From positions 1 to 44,857 of the forward strand of contig CANLQR010000004.1 of the NCBI GenBank assembly GCA_947492135.1: DNA of 44,857 nucleotides, in the 5' to 3' direction. Shown here one piece after another: positions 40,552 to 44,857 of the stretch. The position numbers were made by a program, and so were the translations under genes. The DNA comes from Deltaproteobacteria bacterium. Lineage in GTDB: Bacteria > Myxococcota_A > Polyangia > Nannocystales > Nannocystaceae. The notes beneath the pieces were generated by a model that saw only the letters and a list, made by a program, of their open reading frames with translations, was not told the origin of the DNA and did no database searches. Positions within the stretch are counted from its first letter, which is position 1. Every line of letters starts with the position of its first letter.

Positions 40552-40972
40552 ACACCGGGGCGCGTATGGTCTACAGCGGGGCGATGAGTCGGTCGATCCG
40601 CATCGCACCGCTCGTCGCCGGCATCTCCTCGAGCTCGCGAGCAGCACGGGCACTTACACGCCGCGGGATCGCCGACCGGCGCCGACCAGCACGGCGTGTA
40701 GCCGTGCGGCAGCGCATCGCATGATCCGAAGCCGCGCTAGTCTCCGCTCACGCGAGCGGAGAAGTCCGGATGCCCGAGCACGTGACCGAGCGCCAATCCG
40801 ACCTCGCACTCGTGCTCGCACGTGTCGACGTCGACGGCAGCCGGCCTGAGACCGCGGCCAGCAACACTCGCCGCACTACCGCACGATCGTCACGCAAGGA
40901 TCGCCCTCCGGCAGCCTCGGCGTGCCGTCGGGATTCAGTAGACCGCGCTCGACGCCGAACCGCAGTCGTTCC
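40552..40972. repeat. Direct repeat copy 1 (~420 bp; copy 2 at 44473-window end)
   Basis: The first ~140 nt are about 93% identical to copy 2, then comes a 37-nt indel, then about 230 nt that are nearly 100% identical. The repeat includes the 3' end of the small minus-strand ORF 40876-41073 plus about 320 nt downstream of it. Confidence 0.85.
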
Positions 40973-41073
40973 TCGGGTGTCATCGCCCGGAAGAGCGCCA
41001 TCATGCGTCGGAACGCGTCCTGCGCCTCGCGCACGGCGGGGTCTACGATCACGCGCTCGGACCTCTCAGCCAT
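40876..41073 (-). CDS. Small hypothetical protein (65 aa)
   Basis: MAERSERVIVDPAVREAQDAFRRMMALFRAMTPEERLRFGVERGLLNPDGTPRLPEGDPCVTIVR. Its C-terminal codons lie inside the conserved repeat. A second copy of the 3' end is present at the window edge (44797-44857), which suggests a paralogue continuing beyond the window. The function is unknown and the start is uncertain. Confidence 0.35.
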   Translation of the reverse strand: MAERSERVIVDPAVREAQDAFRRMMALFRAMTPEERLRFGVERGLLNPDGTPRLPEGDPCVTIVR

Positions 41074-41502
41074 CAACTTCGTGATGCCCCTCGCTCGCCT
41101 CCGGTGCAACCGGCGGCGCCCACTCCATGAATTCACGAGGACGGAAGAGCCCAACGATCGCGGTCGATGTGGAGGTCGAGCACGACTGCACGACGGACAC
41201 CATCACGCTGAGCCTGCGCACGAGCGCCGCTGCGTGCGACGGCCAGCCGAGCTGTCCGATCACCGGCTCGGTGCCACTGGGGACCTTCGGCGCGACGTCC
41301 TCACCCGACGTTGAAAACGAGTTCTACGCGTGCGGCCCGTGAGCGCCGTGGCGCAGGATCACGCTCGGTGGCGGCGCACCAGATCACCACGAACGTGAGC
41401 AGGCGATTGGAACGTCGCAATCACAGCCTCGCCCGGCGCCGCGCGCCGCACGATTCGAGTGAACCCGCCGGATCGGCGCCCCGCTGGCGGGCCGCGGATC
41501 AA

Positions 41503-42951
41503 TCAATCGAAGCGGCTGCCCAGGCGCAGGGTCCACCGCTCAATGGTGCCGGTGCTGCCCGCGACGCTGTCGACGACGCGGAGCGTCCAGGTACCGTTGA
41601 TGGACTCGTCGCCGGAGAAGCCCTGGATCGGGCCGTCGATGGACAGCTCGACCGCGCCATCGGTGGGCCCGTCGAACACGACGACCTCGGTGCCAGCCGG
41701 GTTGGTCAGCGTGGCCACGAGCTGGCTGGGCTGGTCGTGGGAGACCCACAGTCGCAGCTCGACGTCGGTGTCGACCGTGGCGAGGCCATGGACGTCGACG
41801 GTGCGCACGCCGCCCTCGGGGTCGCCGTCGGGGACCGGCGTGCCGGACTCGAGCTCACCGAAGTTGCCGCGCATCCATGCCGCCTCGCAAAGGCCCTCGT
41901 CTCCGCGGCTGAGCCCCGAGCACGCCAGGCCCTGGGCCAGGTCGCACGGCTGGGTCGCGCTGCACGCGTCGCGCTCGTCGCTGTACGCGGTGAGATCAGT
42001 GCAACGACCCAGCCCCGATGCGGGCGAGGTGCCCACGCAGGTGCCGACCGAGCAGTCGTCGTCGCTGCTGCAATCGTTGCCGGAGAGGCCACCGGGAGCG
42101 CTGCACTCTTGGAGATCGCCGTCGCCGATGACAGCGACCCGCTCGGTCGTGCCATAGACGAAGTAGGCGCCGACCGAGGTATCACCGGCGCCGAACTCGT
42201 AGACGACGTAGGCGCGGTTGCTGGTGCGATCCCACAGCTCGAGTTGGTTGTACTCGCCCTGGTCCGCGACCTCGAAGGCCTGTTCGATGGTCTCGACGTC
42301 GTCGGCTGCGGAGCTGCGGGCCGCCGCCATGACCTGCTGGATCTCGAGCGGCGTGAGCCCCGCGGGCGAGGTGAGCACGCGGCGACGCGTGGTCGCGATG
42401 CTCGAGGAGTTTGCGAGATCGCGGAACACCTGGCCGAAGGCGCACGCGGCCGGCTCGGGGGCCAGCGGCGCGCACTCGCCCGATTCGCAGCTGGCGGACA
42501 ACCGGTAGCGACCACGGCGCCGGGCGTCATGGGTGCCGACGACCACGAGGTACTCGCCGCCGTCGAGCTCGAGGCCGGTGATTTTCGACTGCCTCGACCA
42601 ACCCGAGTCGTCGTCGAACGCGATCGCCTCGGTGCCGCACATCCCGTCCACGCACGGCCCATAGACGAATAGTGTGGAGTCGAGCTTGGCGGCCGTGCCC
42701 GCGCGGGTGAGTTCCACACGGACGCGAGCACCGTCGCGGACCGCGAGGCGGTAGCCGTCGAACTGAAGGTCCTCGACGAATTCACCATTGCTCGGCGTGT
42801 CCAGCGAGAGCACTCCGCGATCGACCACGTGGTCGGCGGCGTCGGCCTTGCCCGCGCCGAGCTCGGGGACGACCGCACCGTCGGTGTCATCTGTGACACA
42901 CGCGGAGAGCACGGCGAGGGTGGCGAGGGCGAGGATCTTGGTGGTCGACAT
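41503..42951 (-). CDS. Secreted lipoprotein with a C-terminal proprotein-convertase P-domain-like module
   Basis: The internal ATG at 42951 gives MSTTKILALATLAVLSAC (lipobox). The C-terminus VRTVDVHGLATVDTDVELRLWVSHDQPSQLVATLTNPAGTEVVVFDG...SINGTWTLRVVDSVAGSTGTIERWTLRLG fits the P_proprotein pattern (...I.H....DL.I.L.SP.GT...L......NG.W.L.V.D....D.G.L..W.L). The upstream part of the track ORF is Arg-rich junk. Confidence 0.65.
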   Translation of the reverse strand: MSTTKILALATLAVLSACVTDDTDGAVVPELGAGKADAADHVVDRGVLSLDTPSNGEFVEDLQFDGYRLAVRDGARVRVELTRAGTAAKLDSTLFVYGPCVDGMCGTEAIAFDDDSGWSRQSKITGLELDGGEYLVVVGTHDARRRGRYRLSASCESGECAPLAPEPAACAFGQVFRDLANSSSIATTRRRVLTSPAGLTPLEIQQVMAAARSSAADDVETIEQAFEVADQGEYNQLELWDRTSNRAYVVYEFGAGDTSVGAYFVYGTTERVAVIGDGDLQECSAPGGLSGNDCSSDDDCSVGTCVGTSPASGLGRCTDLTAYSDERDACSATQPCDLAQGLACSGLSRGDEGLCEAAWMRGNFGELESGTPVPDGDPEGGVRTVDVHGLATVDTDVELRLWVSHDQPSQLVATLTNPAGTEVVVFDGPTDGAVELSIDGPIQGFSGDESINGTWTLRVVDSVAGSTGTIERWTLRLGSRFD

Positions 42952-43314
42952 CACGGCCGCCCGTTGTGCAAAGGCCAGGACACGATCGACCGCGACAGCG
43001 ATTCTCCGTGTTTGGCCTCCGCATGCGCTCGGCCGGCCCGCCCGCTGGCCACTGCGATGGCCACCCAGTGGGCCAACGCTGGCCACTGCGTGGGCCGCAC
43101 CCCGCCAGCGGCGCCGTCACGGTGGGGTGTCGAGGCGCGACTAGAGCGGTCGGGATCCGATGTGTGCTCGGGCTCGCCGCGCGGTCCGGCACCGAGTTGG
43201 CCGTTCTCCGCGTTGCCTCAGCAGCGCGGCGTCACCTCGCGTGCGCGCCGGTGACTTCGTCTTGGTTCTCGGCGCTCGGGGCGGACGGACAGGCGCGTTG
43301 AGGAAGTCCGATGA

Positions 43315-43335
43315 TGTGATATCATTGATATCACA
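43315..43335. promoter_or_regulatory. Perfect 21-bp palindrome TGTGATATCA-T-TGATATCACA ending at the vapB ATG (candidate VapB operator)
   Basis: Read directly. 10-bp arms with a 1-nt spacer; its last base is the A of the vapB ATG (43335-43337). It sits in an AT-richer patch within a 380-bp divergent region. Confidence 0.6.
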
Positions 43336-43565: not shown

Positions 43566-44017
43566 GCTACTTGCTCGACACGAACGTGATCTCCGAACTC
43601 CGAAAAGGCGCACGCGCGGACGCGAACGTTCGAGCATGGTTCCGCGATGTGGACCCGAGCGAACTCTACCTCAGCGTTCTCGTGATCGGTGAGATTCGTC
43701 GGGGCATCGAGTCGATCCGTCGCCGTGACCCGGACAGCGCGAGGGCACTGGATGGTTGGTTTGCACGGGTCGTTCACGATCACGCGGACCGCGTTCTGGC
43801 GGTGAGTTTCGATGTGGCCGTCGCGTGGGGTAGCTTCGGCGGCCCGGATCGGCTACCGGTGATCGATGCACTGATGGCCGCAACTGCGCTGGTGCACCGG
43901 CTGACGTTGGTCACGAGGAACGTCGCCGACGTGGCGCGCACGGGCGTGGATGTGCTCGACCCATTCGCACCTGTGGGGGTGCATCGGCCGCCGCGACGCC
44001 CTCGACGGAAGGGATAG
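43562..44017 (+). CDS. vapC: PIN-domain ribonuclease toxin VapC (FitB-like)
   Basis: The GTG at 43562 gives VSYLLDTNVISELRKG... (PIN Asp1), then GEIRRG, VIDALMAATA and LVTRNVADV, the conserved acidic PIN positions. The 4-nt overlap with vapB is canonical. Confidence 0.75.
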   Translation: MSYLLDTNVISELRKGARADANVRAWFRDVDPSELYLSVLVIGEIRRGIESIRRRDPDSARALDGWFARVVHDHADRVLAVSFDVAVAWGSFGGPDRLPVIDALMAATALVHRLTLVTRNVADVARTGVDVLDPFAPVGVHRPPRRPRRKG

Positions 44018-44024
44018 GACCGCG

Positions 44025-44459
44025 GTGGAGGACGCACACGAAGCCGAGACCCGTGTCGCCGTGAGGCGACGATGGGGGTGGCGGGATCTGGTGCCGCGAC
44101 CAAGTCGCGCCGAGCTCTACTTGATCGCGTTGCTACTCGGAGTTGCTGCCGGCATCCCCATGTACGCAGTTGTGCCGGGACTCTCGGCGGTCTGGTTCGT
44201 CCAGAGGCTCGCGAGCTATCGACTGGGGAACGTCAAGGAGCTGGGCACGGCGGCGCGCCGTGCCCACCAACGCGTTGCGGAGGTCAAGGGACGTGCGGGG
44301 GATGGCATGGAGTGCGCAGTGGCTCGCCTGGCGAGCTGGTCCACGCGCAAGCGCTTTGGACGCGAGGACGCTCGAACCGCTGCGGTCACGGCGATCGTTG
44401 CCTATGTGCTCCGAGAGCTCGCAGGGCTCGAGCGCGCGGCGACGATTCTACGCAAATAA
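44025..44459 (+). CDS. Hypothetical small membrane protein
   Basis: A GTG at 44025 lies 5 nt after AGGA and directly after the vapC stop. The predicted TM segment is LYLIALLLGVAAGIPMYAVVPGLSAVWFV. No recognisable domain. The start is uncertain. Confidence 0.35.
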   Translation: MEDAHEAETRVAVRRRWGWRDLVPRPSRAELYLIALLLGVAAGIPMYAVVPGLSAVWFVQRLASYRLGNVKELGTAARRAHQRVAEVKGRAGDGMECAVARLASWSTRKRFGREDARTAAVTAIVAYVLRELAGLERAATILRK

Positions 44460-44472
44460 TTCGGGCCGGAAC

Positions 44473-44857
44473 ACACCGGGGCGCGCAGGGTCTACAGCGG
44501 CGCGATGAGTCGATCGATCCGCATCGCGCCGCTCGCCGCCGGCATCTCCTCGAGCTCACGAGCAGCACGGGCACTCGCACGCCGTGGGATCGCCGACCCG
44601 CGCCGACCAGCAAGCCGCGCGAACTCTCTGCTCACGCGGGCGGAGAAGTCCGGATGCCCGAGCACGTGACCGAGCGCCAATCCGACTTCGCACTCGTGCT
44701 CGCACGTGTCGACGTCGACGGCAGCCGGCCTGAGACCCCGGCCAGCAACACTCGCCGCACTACCGCACGATCGTCACGCAAGGATCGCCCTCCGGCAGCC
44801 TCGGCGTGCCGTCGGGATTCAGTAGACCGCGCTCGACGCCGAACCGCAGTCGTTCCT
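44473..44857. repeat. Direct repeat copy 2 (runs to the window edge)
   Basis: See 40552-40972. It begins 14 nt after the stop of the upstream plus-strand gene, just as copy 1 begins 42 nt after the MVP stop. Confidence 0.85.

What the first reader, a model, noticed from the sequence alone, without database searches (positions are those of the whole stretch)
40552..44857. ~420-bp direct repeats starting right after the MVP gene bracket a 3.9-kb cassette (P-domain lipoprotein, vapBC, small membrane protein)
Copy 1 (40552-40972) and copy 2 (44473 to the window end) share about 93% identity over the first ~140 nt, a 37-nt indel, then about 230 nt of near-perfect identity. The identical part covers the last ~30 codons of a small ORF (40876-41073, minus strand) and about 320 nt 3' of it. 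Both copies begin within 45 nt of the stop of a plus-strand gene (MVP; the hypothetical at 44025-44459). The bracketed segment carries a secreted lipoprotein with a proprotein-convertase P-domain, a vapBC addiction module with its operator, and an orphan membrane protein, which is typical accessory cargo. This looks like a segmental duplication, an integration with long repeat scars, or a structured 3'-UTR/sRNA that has been copied.
Basis: seen in the sequence. Interest (0 to 1): 0.65.

Follow-up and report, generated by a model that had tools for sequence, protein, structure and literature searches.

The report
Duplicated antitoxin-gene stump brackets accessory cassette
The two ~0.4-kb direct repeats are real. 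Each copy holds a small antitoxin-like gene, the stump of its partner toxin gene and the spacer behind them, and together they flank 3.3 kb of accessory genes in a myxobacterial (Nannocystaceae-like) metagenome contig that stops inside the second copy; this is an ordinary segmental duplication and recombination hotspot, not a new RNA or mobile element.

Summary
Copy 1 (40552-40973) and copy 2 (44473-44857) match at 91% over 145 nt, then a 37-nt indel, then 98% over 233 nt (BLAST E 2e-155).

The repeat unit is the 3' part of a decayed two-gene module:
- an intact, conserved 65-aa gene;
- the last 31 codons of its upstream partner, a CmdT-like ADP-ribosyltransferase toxin family;
- about 320 nt of downstream spacer.

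Copy 2 is orthologous to the single copy seen in a 98-99% identical strain (L001), where it follows an intact 503-aa TPR gene. The window's 144-aa "membrane protein" is a truncated form of that gene. Copy 1 is an older paralogue. It starts at a strain-specific breakpoint 29 nt after the MVP stop.

The window ends exactly 119 nt after the last copy-specific mismatch, which is the signature of an assembler breaking at a repeat. In other assemblies the 3,884-bp unit closes on itself, or copy 2 runs into an IS21 element. The repeats therefore recombine, or at least confuse assemblers.

I found no RNA-structure signal, no Rfam hit, no recombinase and no further copies in public collections. The finding is ordinary and of low interest.

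The parts
37994..40510 (+). Major vault protein (MVP) homologue, 838 aa. It forms the left flank of copy 1.
   Evidence: Pfam MVP_shoulder 3.4e-26 and Vault_3 3e-10. 80 related loci in Myxococcota and other MAGs; the closest are Nannocystaceae at 86-91%.
40540..40875 (.). Copy 1 (R1), non-coding part. This is the spacer 3' of the small ORF. Clear homology to copy 2 starts at 40552, with weak similarity from about 40540. It carries a 37-nt insertion (about 40702-40738) that is absent from copy 2, L001 and L026.
   Evidence: A 96% identical strain (L124) loses homology to the window exactly at 40539/40540. The left 125 nt show 15 differences from both R2 and L001-R, while those two differ from each other by 3.
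40741..40762 (.). GC-rich hairpin TCTCCGCTC-ACGC-GAGCGGAGA inside the repeat. No T-run follows it.
   Evidence: Self inverted hit and sequence. The two substitutions in copy 2 (C>T, A>G) keep G-U pairs only if the plus strand is read. No intrinsic terminator was called.
40876..41073 (-). Small ORF, 65 aa. It is intact and belongs to a conserved family; it is the presumed antitoxin or partner of the ART-like toxin. It is the only intact gene inside the repeat unit.
   Evidence: 33 protein clusters at 59-97% identity with an invariant IVDP...GDPCVT motif. In relatives it overlaps the stop of a 184-197-aa gene by 8 nt. The AF2 model has pLDDT 85 with two helices and a tail. No Pfam, NCBIfam or PDB match.
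41066..41166 (-). Stump (last ~31 codons) of the CmdT-like ADP-ribosyltransferase toxin gene. Homology to L001 ends at 41166.
   Evidence: Window ORF 41066-41263 shares only ...AIVGLFRPREFMEWAPPVAPEASEGHHEVDG with the L001 95-aa and L020 196-aa proteins. For the full-length family: PADLOC PD-T4-9_A E 2e-7, invariant H/Y/E, and ART-fold top Foldseek hits.
41167..41488 (.). Junction segment specific to the window-type arrangement. It contains a 71-aa hypothetical ORF (41127-41342, +).
   Evidence: No match in L001/L002. Identical in L003, L004 and L125. No Pfam hit.
41503..42951 (-). Secreted protein of 482 aa with a C-terminal proprotein-convertase P-domain.
   Evidence: Pfam P_proprotein 2e-10. 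99% identical block in L001.
43314..43336 (.). Perfect 23-nt palindrome overlapping the vapB start codon; the likely VapB operator.
43335..44017 (+). vapB (43335-43565, FitA-like RHH) and vapC (43562-44017, PIN).
   Evidence: Pfam. Gene calls on L001-L005.
44025..44459 (+). Truncated gene of 144 aa. Its first ~139 residues match the N-terminus of a 503-aa TM+TPR protein that is intact in L001/L002. About 1.15 kb is missing relative to L001.
   Evidence: L001 7891-9049 = window 43283-44441 at 98.6%, then L001 10202 onwards = window 44502 onwards. Protein sequences. TPR hits on the 503-aa form.
44473..44857 (.). Copy 2 (R2), cut by the end of the window, with weak similarity from 44459. Positions 44760-44857 are the last 32 codons of a second copy of the small ORF (minus strand).
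   Evidence: 97.8% identical to the single R of L001/L002 and 100% identical to L003, L004 and L026. The window end equals the last copy-specific mismatch (44738) plus 119 nt.

Best explanation
The repeat is a segmental duplication, that is, two paralogous copies of the tail of a decayed toxin-antitoxin-like module. It is not an RNA element or an att site.

The unit reads on the minus strand: [stump of a CmdT-like ADP-ribosyltransferase toxin gene] - [intact 65-aa partner gene] - [~320-nt downstream spacer].

Copy 2 (R2) sits where related strains have their copy, after the TPR gene that follows vapBC. That TPR gene has lost 1.15 kb in this lineage. Copy 1 (R1) is an older, more diverged paralogue. 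It lies at a lineage-specific breakpoint 29 nt after the MVP stop.

Because the two copies are identical from 40855 rightwards, de Bruijn assemblers cannot pass them, and the window is a contig that terminates inside R2. The same identity makes the pair a substrate for RecA-type homologous recombination. Such recombination can delete, circularise or tandemly amplify the 3,884-bp unit [small ORF - stump - 71-aa ORF - P-domain protein - vapBC - TPR fragment - R2]. Loop-closing contigs from other samples suggest that this happens in the population.

Shown directly: the repeat; its gene content; orthology of R2 with L001-R; the breakpoint at 40540; the assembly-break signature; and the existence of loop-closing and IS21-exit contigs.

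Inferred: that both copies sit in one genome; that the small protein is an antitoxin; and that recombination, rather than assembler behaviour, produces the loop.
For: 1. The repeat is real and unique to these two places in the window.

2. The small ORF is a genuine conserved gene with 33 clusters. In relatives it is translationally coupled to a 184-197-aa gene. That partner family has invariant H/Y/E residues, a PADLOC PD-T4-9_A (CmdT) hit at E 2e-7 and ART-fold top structural matches at probability 0.90-0.96. CmdT is an ART toxin (PMC9519451; bioRxiv 10.1101/2024.02.24.581848).

3. The toxin gene is reduced to 31 codons in the window, to 95 aa in L001 and to about 50 aa in L007, while the small gene stays intact.

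4. R2 and L001-R differ at 3 of 125 left-part positions, and R1 differs from each at 15 of 125. In the right 313 nt, R1 and the R2 continuation are identical, and both are 8 differences from L001.

5. L124, a 96% identical strain, diverges from the window at 40540. None of 80 MVP loci carries the small ORF, P-domain gene, vapBC or TPR gene downstream.

6. The window end is 44738+119. The end of L003 (a k141 contig) is 44738+141. L004 (k31) starts right after mismatch 44639 and has a 30-nt terminal overlap. Its 3,884-nt unit is an exact rotation of the window path.

7. L026 is 100% identical to 44503-44857 and continues into a variant small ORF and then IS21 istA/istB.

8. L125 links R1-type SNPs to the small ORF, the 71-aa ORF and the P-domain path.

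9. There is no Rfam hit, no fold signal and no promoter or terminator call. There is no recombinase in the cassette, no plasmid similarity or iterons, and no other copies in GTDB, JGI or IMG/VR.
Against: - The source genome was not found in any collection. What follows R2 in this genome is therefore unknown, and no reads are available to show that R1 and R2 are co-resident.
- The loop contigs could partly reflect assembler graph simplification. L003 and L004 may derive from the same sample.
- The antitoxin role of the 65-aa protein rests only on gene order and the retention pattern. It has no detectable homology or fold match.
- The ART assignment of its partner has weak Foldseek E-values (7e-3 or worse).
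- The substitution pattern in the spacer shows a non-significant excess at one codon phase (8 of 14). A short decayed or real ORF there cannot be excluded.
Confidence: 0.7

Rival explanations
1. The 3,884-bp unit is physically amplified or episomal. It exists as a tandem array (MVP-R1-[unit]n) or as a free circle produced by recombination between R1 and R2. On this reading the window contig is the 'stick plus one turn' of a lollipop in the assembly graph. This extends the best explanation rather than contradicting it.
For: L004 (Logan, k31) and L003 (MEGAHIT, k141) both close on themselves through R2 into the copy-1-type small ORF. L004 breaks only at the point where the R1 path joins, and no exit branch is seen there. 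The R2 continuation is identical to the R1 continuation over 313 nt. vapBC could stabilise an amplified or episomal unit.
Against: The unit has no replication or mobilisation gene, no iterons and no plasmid similarity. An alternative exit, R2 into a variant small ORF and then IS21, exists at 100% identity to R2 in another sample (L026). A short edge into a multicopy IS could have been pruned by the assemblers. Iterative-k assemblers can also carry chimeric k-mers forward. No coverage data are available.
Confidence: 0.4
2. The contig is chimeric. R1 (after MVP) and R2 (after the TPR fragment) belong to different co-occurring strains, and the contig switches strain inside the identical stretch. 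No single genome would then carry direct repeats around the cassette.
For: At least four structural variants of this locus co-occur across the same set of samples: L001/L002, L003/L004, L026 and L125. SNPs are mosaic between contexts. The right-hand part of the two copies is indistinguishable.
Against: Every contig that contains the cassette continues on the right into the TPR fragment and R2 (window, L003, L004). R1-type SNPs are linked to the cassette's left junction in an independent assembly (L125). Any genome with MVP-R1-cassette should therefore also have R2. The loop contigs themselves require two R copies or a circle.
Confidence: 0.12
3. R-left is a functional cis-regulatory or small RNA, such as a structured 3' UTR of the small gene or a terminator module for the convergent genes. 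On this reading it was copied because it is functional.
For: About 320 nt of non-coding sequence is conserved between the paralogues. A strong 9-bp hairpin (40741-40762) has two substitutions in copy 2 that keep G-U pairing on the plus strand.
Against: No Rfam match was found even at E<=1. MFE z-scores are -0.5 and -1.1. The spacer is absent downstream of the small ORF in all relatives below about 96% identity, where unrelated genes abut within 30-50 nt. No other copies exist. A 37-nt indel and 12% divergence are tolerated in copy 1.
Confidence: 0.05
4. The repeats are attL/attR scars of a site-specific integration of a 3.9-kb genomic islet.
For: There are direct repeats in the same orientation around accessory cargo that includes a TA module. 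The left breakpoint coincides with the start of R1.
Against: No integrase, recombinase or transposase lies in or next to the cassette. The nearest tRNA is 16 kb away. The repeats are long, gene-containing and unequally diverged, at 88% on the left and 100% on the right. R2 is in ancestral synteny with vapBC-TPR in L001, which lacks the MVP context.
Confidence: 0.03

Closest known systems
Direct-repeat-flanked amplifiable or deletable segments. Examples are RecA-dependent tandem amplification between paralogous repeats, such as the type II 'amplifiable units of DNA' of Streptomyces. This comparison rests on my own knowledge and was not checked in the literature here.
   Same: Same-orientation repeats of a few hundred bp bracket a few kb of DNA. 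A junction joining the end of the unit to its start (R2 into the copy-1-type small ORF) is seen in other assemblies.
   Different: Copy number was not measured. The repeats are short (at least 140 nt of perfect identity visible, about 0.45-0.6 kb in total) and partly diverged. Amplification is inferred from contig topology only.
Degenerate toxin-antitoxin loci with retained ('orphan') antitoxin genes
   Same: The toxin-like upstream gene is truncated to different extents in three lineages, while the small downstream gene stays intact and conserved.
   Different: Neither protein has been tested. The small protein has no similarity to any known antitoxin family.
CmdTAC / PD-T4-9 (ART toxin CmdT, antitoxin CmdA, SecB-like chaperone CmdC; PMC9519451; bioRxiv 10.1101/2024.02.24.581848)
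   Same: The full-length 196-aa partner matches the PADLOC PD-T4-9_A model (E 2e-7). It has an invariant H-Y-E triad and an ART-like predicted fold. It is followed by a small overlapping gene.
   Different: No SecB-like third gene is present in any locus seen. The small partner is 65 aa, whereas CmdA is at least 121 aa judging from the 120AA121 residue numbering in the preprint, and the two are unrelated by sequence. In the window itself only a 31-codon stump of the toxin remains.
Repeat-induced contig termination and 'lollipop' loops in de Bruijn assemblies
   Same: Contig ends fall exactly k (or k+1) bases after the last copy-specific base: 119 for the window and 141 for the k141 contig. The k31 contig has a k-1 terminal overlap.
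   Different: Nothing differs. This part of the finding is an assembly property, not biology.
Integrative islands bounded by att direct repeats
   Same: Direct repeats flank accessory cargo that includes a TA module.
   Different: There is no recombinase and no tRNA or short identical core. The repeats are paralogous gene fragments with a divergence gradient.

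Membership tests
Segmental (dispersed or tandem) duplication acting as a homologous-recombination substrate | Two same-orientation copies with extended high identity in one replicon | tested here: met
   145 nt at 91% plus 233 nt at 98%. There are no mismatches from 40855 to the window end. Co-residence in one genome is inferred from contig continuity (window; L125).
Segmental (dispersed or tandem) duplication acting as a homologous-recombination substrate | Recombinant junction (end of the unit joined to its start) or elevated read depth | tested here: inconclusive
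   Junction-bearing, self-closing contigs L003 and L004 exist. No reads or coverage are available, and an alternative IS21 exit exists (L026).
Structured non-coding RNA / sRNA | Match to a described RNA family | tested here: not met
   Rfam 15 gave 0 hits at gathering threshold over the whole window and 0 hits at E<=1 for 40300-41500.
Structured non-coding RNA / sRNA | Folding energy beyond shuffled controls, or covariation | tested here: not met
   z = -0.5 on the minus strand and -1.1 on the plus strand. Covariation cannot be tested, because only three near-identical variants exist.
Interspersed multicopy repeat (REP/MITE-like) | Many copies per genome or across genomes | tested here: not met
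   There are two copies in 44.9 kb. GTDB genomes gave 0 hits. JGI metagenomes gave only chance 21-mer hits. IMG/VR gave 0 hits. The complete source genome is not available.
Site-specific integrative element (attL/attR) | Integrase or recombinase encoded in or next to the element | tested here: not met
   Pfam on all cassette ORFs found no recombinase. No IS21 or other transposase homologue occurs in the window.
Site-specific integrative element (attL/attR) | Short identical core repeats, often at a tRNA or tmRNA gene | tested here: not met
   The only tRNA is at 24448-24530. The repeats are 0.4 kb or longer with 12% divergence on the left.
Small plasmid / autonomous circular replicon | Replication initiator, iterons, or similarity to known plasmids | tested here: not met
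   No Rep domain, no PLSDB match and no iteron-like tandem repeats.
CmdT-like ART toxin family (partner of the small ORF) | Sequence or profile similarity to CmdT (PD-T4-9_A) | tested here: met
   PADLOC PDLC04069/04068 at E 2e-7, covering the N-terminal ~90 residues of the full-length relative L020_196. The window retains only 31 C-terminal codons.
CmdT-like ART toxin family (partner of the small ORF) | ART fold with a catalytic H-Y-E triad | tested here: inconclusive
   H11, Y42 and E141 are invariant in 34 sequences. The AF2 model has pLDDT 90. The top Foldseek PDB hits are NatT, PARP4 ART and diphtheria toxin at probability 0.90-0.96, but with E 7e-3 to 1e-2 and TM about 0.4.
CmdTAC tripartite system | SecB-like chaperone as the third gene | tested here: not met
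   No third conserved gene is present in L011, L012 or L020-L023. The downstream neighbours differ in every lineage.
Type II toxin-antitoxin pair (196-aa + 65-aa) | Toxicity of one product neutralised by the other | not testable with these tools
   The only evidence is the 8-nt gene overlap and the decay of the larger gene with retention of the small one.
VapBC | RHH/AbrB-type antitoxin followed by an overlapping PIN-domain toxin | tested here: met
   FitA-like_RHH 1.2e-13 and PIN 8.3e-12, with a 4-nt overlap at 43562-43565. A palindrome lies at the start codon.

The most novel reading that the evidence does not exclude
The 3,884-bp unit (small antitoxin-like gene, P-domain secreted protein, vapBC, R2) is a real high-copy circular or tandemly amplified DNA species in natural Nannocystaceae populations. 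It would enter and leave the chromosome purely by homologous recombination at the duplicated antitoxin stump and be stabilised by vapBC, making it a recombinase-free 'amplifiable unit' caught in environmental metagenomes.
Probability: 0.1. Interest if true: 0.45.

Novelty: new member of a known kind. Interest (0 to 1): 0.2.

Why it matters
The main value is as a caution. A striking pair of long direct repeats at the end of a metagenome contig turned out to be a paralogous gene fragment that also explains why the contig ends there. The locus illustrates strain-level structural churn next to a bacterial major-vault-protein gene: deletions, an IS21 insertion, and possible loop-out or amplification. 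A by-product is an uncharacterised, fairly widespread two-gene module, a CmdT-like ADP-ribosyltransferase plus a 65-aa partner with no Pfam family. Its toxin half decays repeatedly while the small gene is retained. That module would be a reasonable candidate for a toxin-antitoxin or defence test.

Tried and rejected
1. Extending the window. Exact-protein look-ups with VapB, the small ORF, MVP and the 71-aa ORF never returned the source contig. They returned only short contigs from related samples, so the true continuation after 44857 stays unknown.

2. Searching for further copies. A 38-mer of R-left gave 0 hits in GTDB genomes. A 21-mer gave 16 chance hits without extended homology in JGI metagenomes. 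A 37-mer gave 0 hits in IMG/VR.

3. Testing whether R-left is the remnant of the convergent gene seen in relatives. tblastn of the L007 and L010 neighbours gave no hit. tblastx of R-left against all loci gave only noise.

4. Testing for coding potential in R-left. Substitutions between the copies show 8 of 14 in one codon phase, which is not significant. GC3 of the candidate frames is 0.62-0.76, against 0.82-0.90 for the real genes. I rejected this as evidence of a gene.

5. RNA hypotheses: Rfam, MFE z-scores and a promoter/terminator scan were all negative.

6. Synteny with MVP loci of 80 genomes. Only the upstream lipoprotein is conserved, and the region downstream of MVP is variable.

7. 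Plasmid hypothesis: no PLSDB similarity and no iterons.

8. Looking in the window for the four extra L001 genes and the IS21 genes: absent.

Full report
OBSERVATION

The repeat is real. The repeat finder reports 40741-40973 vs 44625-44857 (233 nt, 98%) and 40552-40696 vs 44473-44617 (145 nt, 91%). MAFFT shows a 37-nt segment present only in copy 1, at about 40702-40738. blastn of the region against the whole window finds only these two copies (E 2e-155). The right part has four mismatches, the last at 40854/44738. Copy 2 runs to the final base of the window and includes the last 32 codons of the minus-strand small ORF 40876-41073.

A perfect 23-nt palindrome lies over the vapB start codon.

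WHAT THE REPEAT UNIT CONTAINS

The 65-aa small ORF is a genuine conserved gene. There are 33 protein clusters at 59-97% identity, with invariant IVDP and GDPCVT motifs, and those that carry a name come from Myxococcota MAGs.

In less closely related genomes it is the second gene of a pair and overlaps by 8 nt the stop of a 184-197-aa gene (L011, L012, L020, L021). That larger protein belongs to a broad uncharacterised family of 186 clusters with no Pfam or NCBIfam model. Several lines point to an ADP-ribosyltransferase (ART):
- H11, Y42 and E141 are invariant.
- It matches the PADLOC model PD-T4-9_A at E 2e-7.
- Its AlphaFold model (pLDDT 90) finds only ART folds at the top of a PDB Foldseek search: the NatT toxin, the PARP4 ART domain and the diphtheria toxin catalytic domain, at probability 0.90-0.96 but with E no better than 7e-3.

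PD-T4-9 is CmdTAC, whose toxin CmdT is an mRNA ADP-ribosyltransferase (PMC9519451; bioRxiv 10.1101/2024.02.24.581848). I read PD-T4-9_A as CmdT from the gene order.

The toxin-like gene is decayed in several lineages. In the window only its last ~31 codons survive (41066-41166). In the sister strain L001 a 95-aa C-terminal half remains, and in L007 about 50 codons remain. The small gene stays intact in each case. This is the pattern expected for a decaying TA module that keeps its antitoxin, but the antitoxin role is inferred. The 65-aa protein (two helices plus a conserved tail) has no sequence or fold relatives.

The remaining ~320 nt of the repeat (40552-40875) is the spacer 3' of the small ORF.

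IS THE SPACER SPECIAL?

The evidence says no.
- Rfam gives nothing at gathering threshold or at E<=1.
- Minimum free energies are within 0.5-1.1 sd of shuffled controls on both strands.
- No sigma-70 promoter or intrinsic terminator is called.
- The spacer occurs only in near-identical strains (L001-L004, L026).
- In relatives with 63-86% identical small proteins, unrelated genes start within 30-50 nt of the stop, and they differ in every lineage.
- Pattern scans found no other copy in GTDB genomes, JGI metagenomes (16 chance 21-mer hits only) or IMG/VR.
- Candidate reading frames have low GC3 (0.62-0.76, against 0.82-0.90 for real genes).

The one notable motif is a 9-bp GC hairpin (40741-40762). 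Its two substitutions in copy 2 keep G-U pairs on the plus strand. That is too little to build on.

RELATIONSHIP OF THE TWO COPIES

Contigs from other metagenomes that carry the identical VapB give the comparison.

L001 and L002 are 98.6-99% identical in the shared genes. Their order is: P-domain gene, four extra genes, vapBC, an intact 503-aa TM+TPR gene, a single R, the small ORF, and a 95-aa toxin remnant. Two things follow. The window's 144-aa "orphan membrane protein" (44025-44459) is the N-terminal 139 residues of that TPR protein, with 1.15 kb lost. And R2 is the orthologue of L001's R (97.8% identity).

Counting differences gives:

| Part of R | R1 vs R2 | R1 vs L001 | R2 vs L001 |
|---|---|---|---|
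| Left 125 nt | 15 | 15 | 3 |
| Right 313 nt (small ORF + stump) | 0 | 8 | 8 |

For the right part, "R2" means the continuation of R2 as seen in L004. So R1 is an older paralogue on its left side, while its right side is either homogenised with R2 by conversion or recombination, or is the same physical path in the assembly graph.

R1 begins at a rearrangement breakpoint. A 96% identical strain (L124) matches the window through the MVP stop and 29 nt beyond, then diverges at 40540. None of 80 MVP loci has the small ORF, P-domain gene, vapBC or TPR gene within 8 kb. The closest of these loci are Nannocystaceae MAGs at 86-91%. Only the upstream Cys-rich lipoprotein is syntenic. The cassette next to MVP is therefore lineage-specific.

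WHY THE WINDOW ENDS IN COPY 2

The last base that distinguishes copy 2 from copy 1 is 44738, and the window ends at 44857 = 44738+119. The MEGAHIT k141 contig L003 ends at the equivalent of 44738+141. The Logan (k31) contig L004 starts at 44640, immediately after the mismatch at 44639, and carries a 30-nt (k-1) terminal overlap. These are the signatures of de Bruijn contigs stopping where a repeat path merges. I infer that the window is a complete contig, probably assembled at k=119, whose end is caused by the repeat.

WHAT FOLLOWS COPY 2

Two continuations are seen elsewhere.

(a) Loop closure. The first and last 61 nt of L003 are identical. The 3,884-nt unit of L004 is an exact rotation of window 44640-44857 plus 40974-44639, with 0 mismatches. 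In these contigs R2 therefore leads back into the copy-1-type small ORF and the cassette.

(b) An IS21 exit. L026 is 100% identical to 44503-44857. It then carries a variant small ORF, with differences 9 and 15 nt past the window end, and from the equivalent of 41106 an IS21-family istB/istA pair.

L125 independently links R1-type SNPs (40803C, 40854G) to the small ORF, the 71-aa ORF and the P-domain gene. It also carries two SNPs otherwise seen in L026. This mosaicism points to exchange between copies or strains.

Taken together, the locus is structurally polymorphic among co-occurring strains, and the direct repeats are the pivot of that polymorphism. The loop may represent a tandem duplication, an excised circle or a graph simplification. 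That cannot be decided without reads. The unit has no replication gene, no iterons and no plasmid similarity.

MECHANISM

My best reading, at about 0.7 confidence, has four steps.
- An old duplication placed a second copy of the [toxin stump - small gene - spacer] segment downstream of MVP.
- Later deletions trimmed the TPR gene and the genes between the P-domain gene and vapBC.
- The two copies recombine or convert, which keeps their right halves identical and allows loop-out or amplification of the 3.9-kb unit.
- Assemblers break there.

The repeat itself has no dedicated function beyond carrying an intact small gene.

RIVALS
- Real amplification or an episome: 0.4. This is compatible with the main reading.
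- A chimeric contig joining two strains: 0.12.
- A functional RNA in the spacer: 0.05.
- att scars of site-specific integration: 0.03.

COMPARISON AND NOVELTY

The arrangement resembles direct-repeat-flanked amplifiable or deletable units and decayed TA loci with orphan antitoxins. It fails the tested defining features of att-bounded islands, Rfam RNAs, interspersed repeats and plasmids (see the membership table). It is a new instance of a known kind of feature. The only mildly new item is the uncharacterised ART-like/65-aa gene pair.

Interest is low (0.2). The most novel reading still open is a recombinase-free, vapBC-stabilised amplifiable circle. I give it a probability of about 0.1.

Noticed in passing
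window 40876-41166 (-); full-length relatives L020:6562-7342, L011:942-1725, L012:1316-2105: An uncharacterised two-gene module: a 184-197-aa protein followed by an overlapping 65-69-aa protein. The larger protein has an invariant H-Y-E triad, a PADLOC PD-T4-9_A (CmdT) hit at E 2e-7 and an ART-like predicted fold. The large family has 186 clusters, including Capsulimonas, Gluconobacter, Erythrobacter and Chitinophaga, and no Pfam or NCBIfam model. The toxin-like gene is truncated in the window, L001 and L007, while the small gene stays intact.
   Followed up: partly
window 44025-44459 (+); L001:8633-10144: The '144-aa orphan membrane protein' is the N-terminal 139 residues of a 503-aa TM+TPR protein that is intact in sister strains. 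About 1.15 kb is deleted in the window lineage. Likewise, four genes (456 aa, 276 aa, an ECF sigma factor and 330 aa) that lie between the P-domain gene and vapBC in L001 are missing here and replaced by 122 nt (43161-43282).
   Followed up: yes
L026:638-3268 (equivalent to window position 41106 onward after copy 2): An IS21-family element (Mu-transposase_C/IstA, IstB) is inserted in the toxin stump. It lies next to an R2 copy that is 100% identical to window 44503-44857. This is a possible true continuation of the window beyond its end.
   Followed up: partly
window 43314-43336: Perfect 23-nt palindrome ATGTGATATCA-C-TGATATCACAT overlapping the vapB ATG; the likely autoregulatory operator.
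   Followed up: no
window 44857 (end): The window end falls exactly 119 nt after the last copy-specific mismatch (44738). The related contigs L003 (k141) and L004 (k31) end or start at the analogous k-dependent positions. The window is therefore probably an entire contig terminated by the repeat.
   Followed up: yes
window 37994-40510 (+) and loci L028-L107: The bacterial major vault protein gene is widespread. There are 80 loci at 44-91% identity, mostly in Myxococcota MAGs but also in Achromatium, Cytophagaceae/Bernardetiaceae, Anaerolineae/Caldilinea and Desulfonema. Only the upstream Cys-rich lipoprotein (36862-37809) is syntenic in the two nearest relatives, and the downstream region is variable.
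   Followed up: partly
L124:1-214 vs window 39909: In a 96% identical strain, homology to the window's MVP gene begins only at 39909, and the called gene is 207 aa. MVP may be disrupted or rearranged in that strain, or the short contig may be chimeric.
   Followed up: no
window 9080-11896, 24353-25915, 26933-30055, 32375-35473 (all -): Four Ser/Thr protein kinase genes, three of them fused to TPR arrays. The window also holds an ECF sigma factor (36200-36802), an AraC regulator (20101-21216) and tRNA-Ala(GGC) at 24448-24530. This is an ordinary myxobacterial chromosomal context and not a recognisable island.
   Followed up: no
window 41081 (minus-strand codon upstream of the small ORF start): The window has GTG where L001, L026 and L125 have ATG. 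Gene callers therefore give 68 aa (MKLMAE...) in those contigs and 65 aa in the window-type contig L004, which shares the GTG.
   Followed up: no
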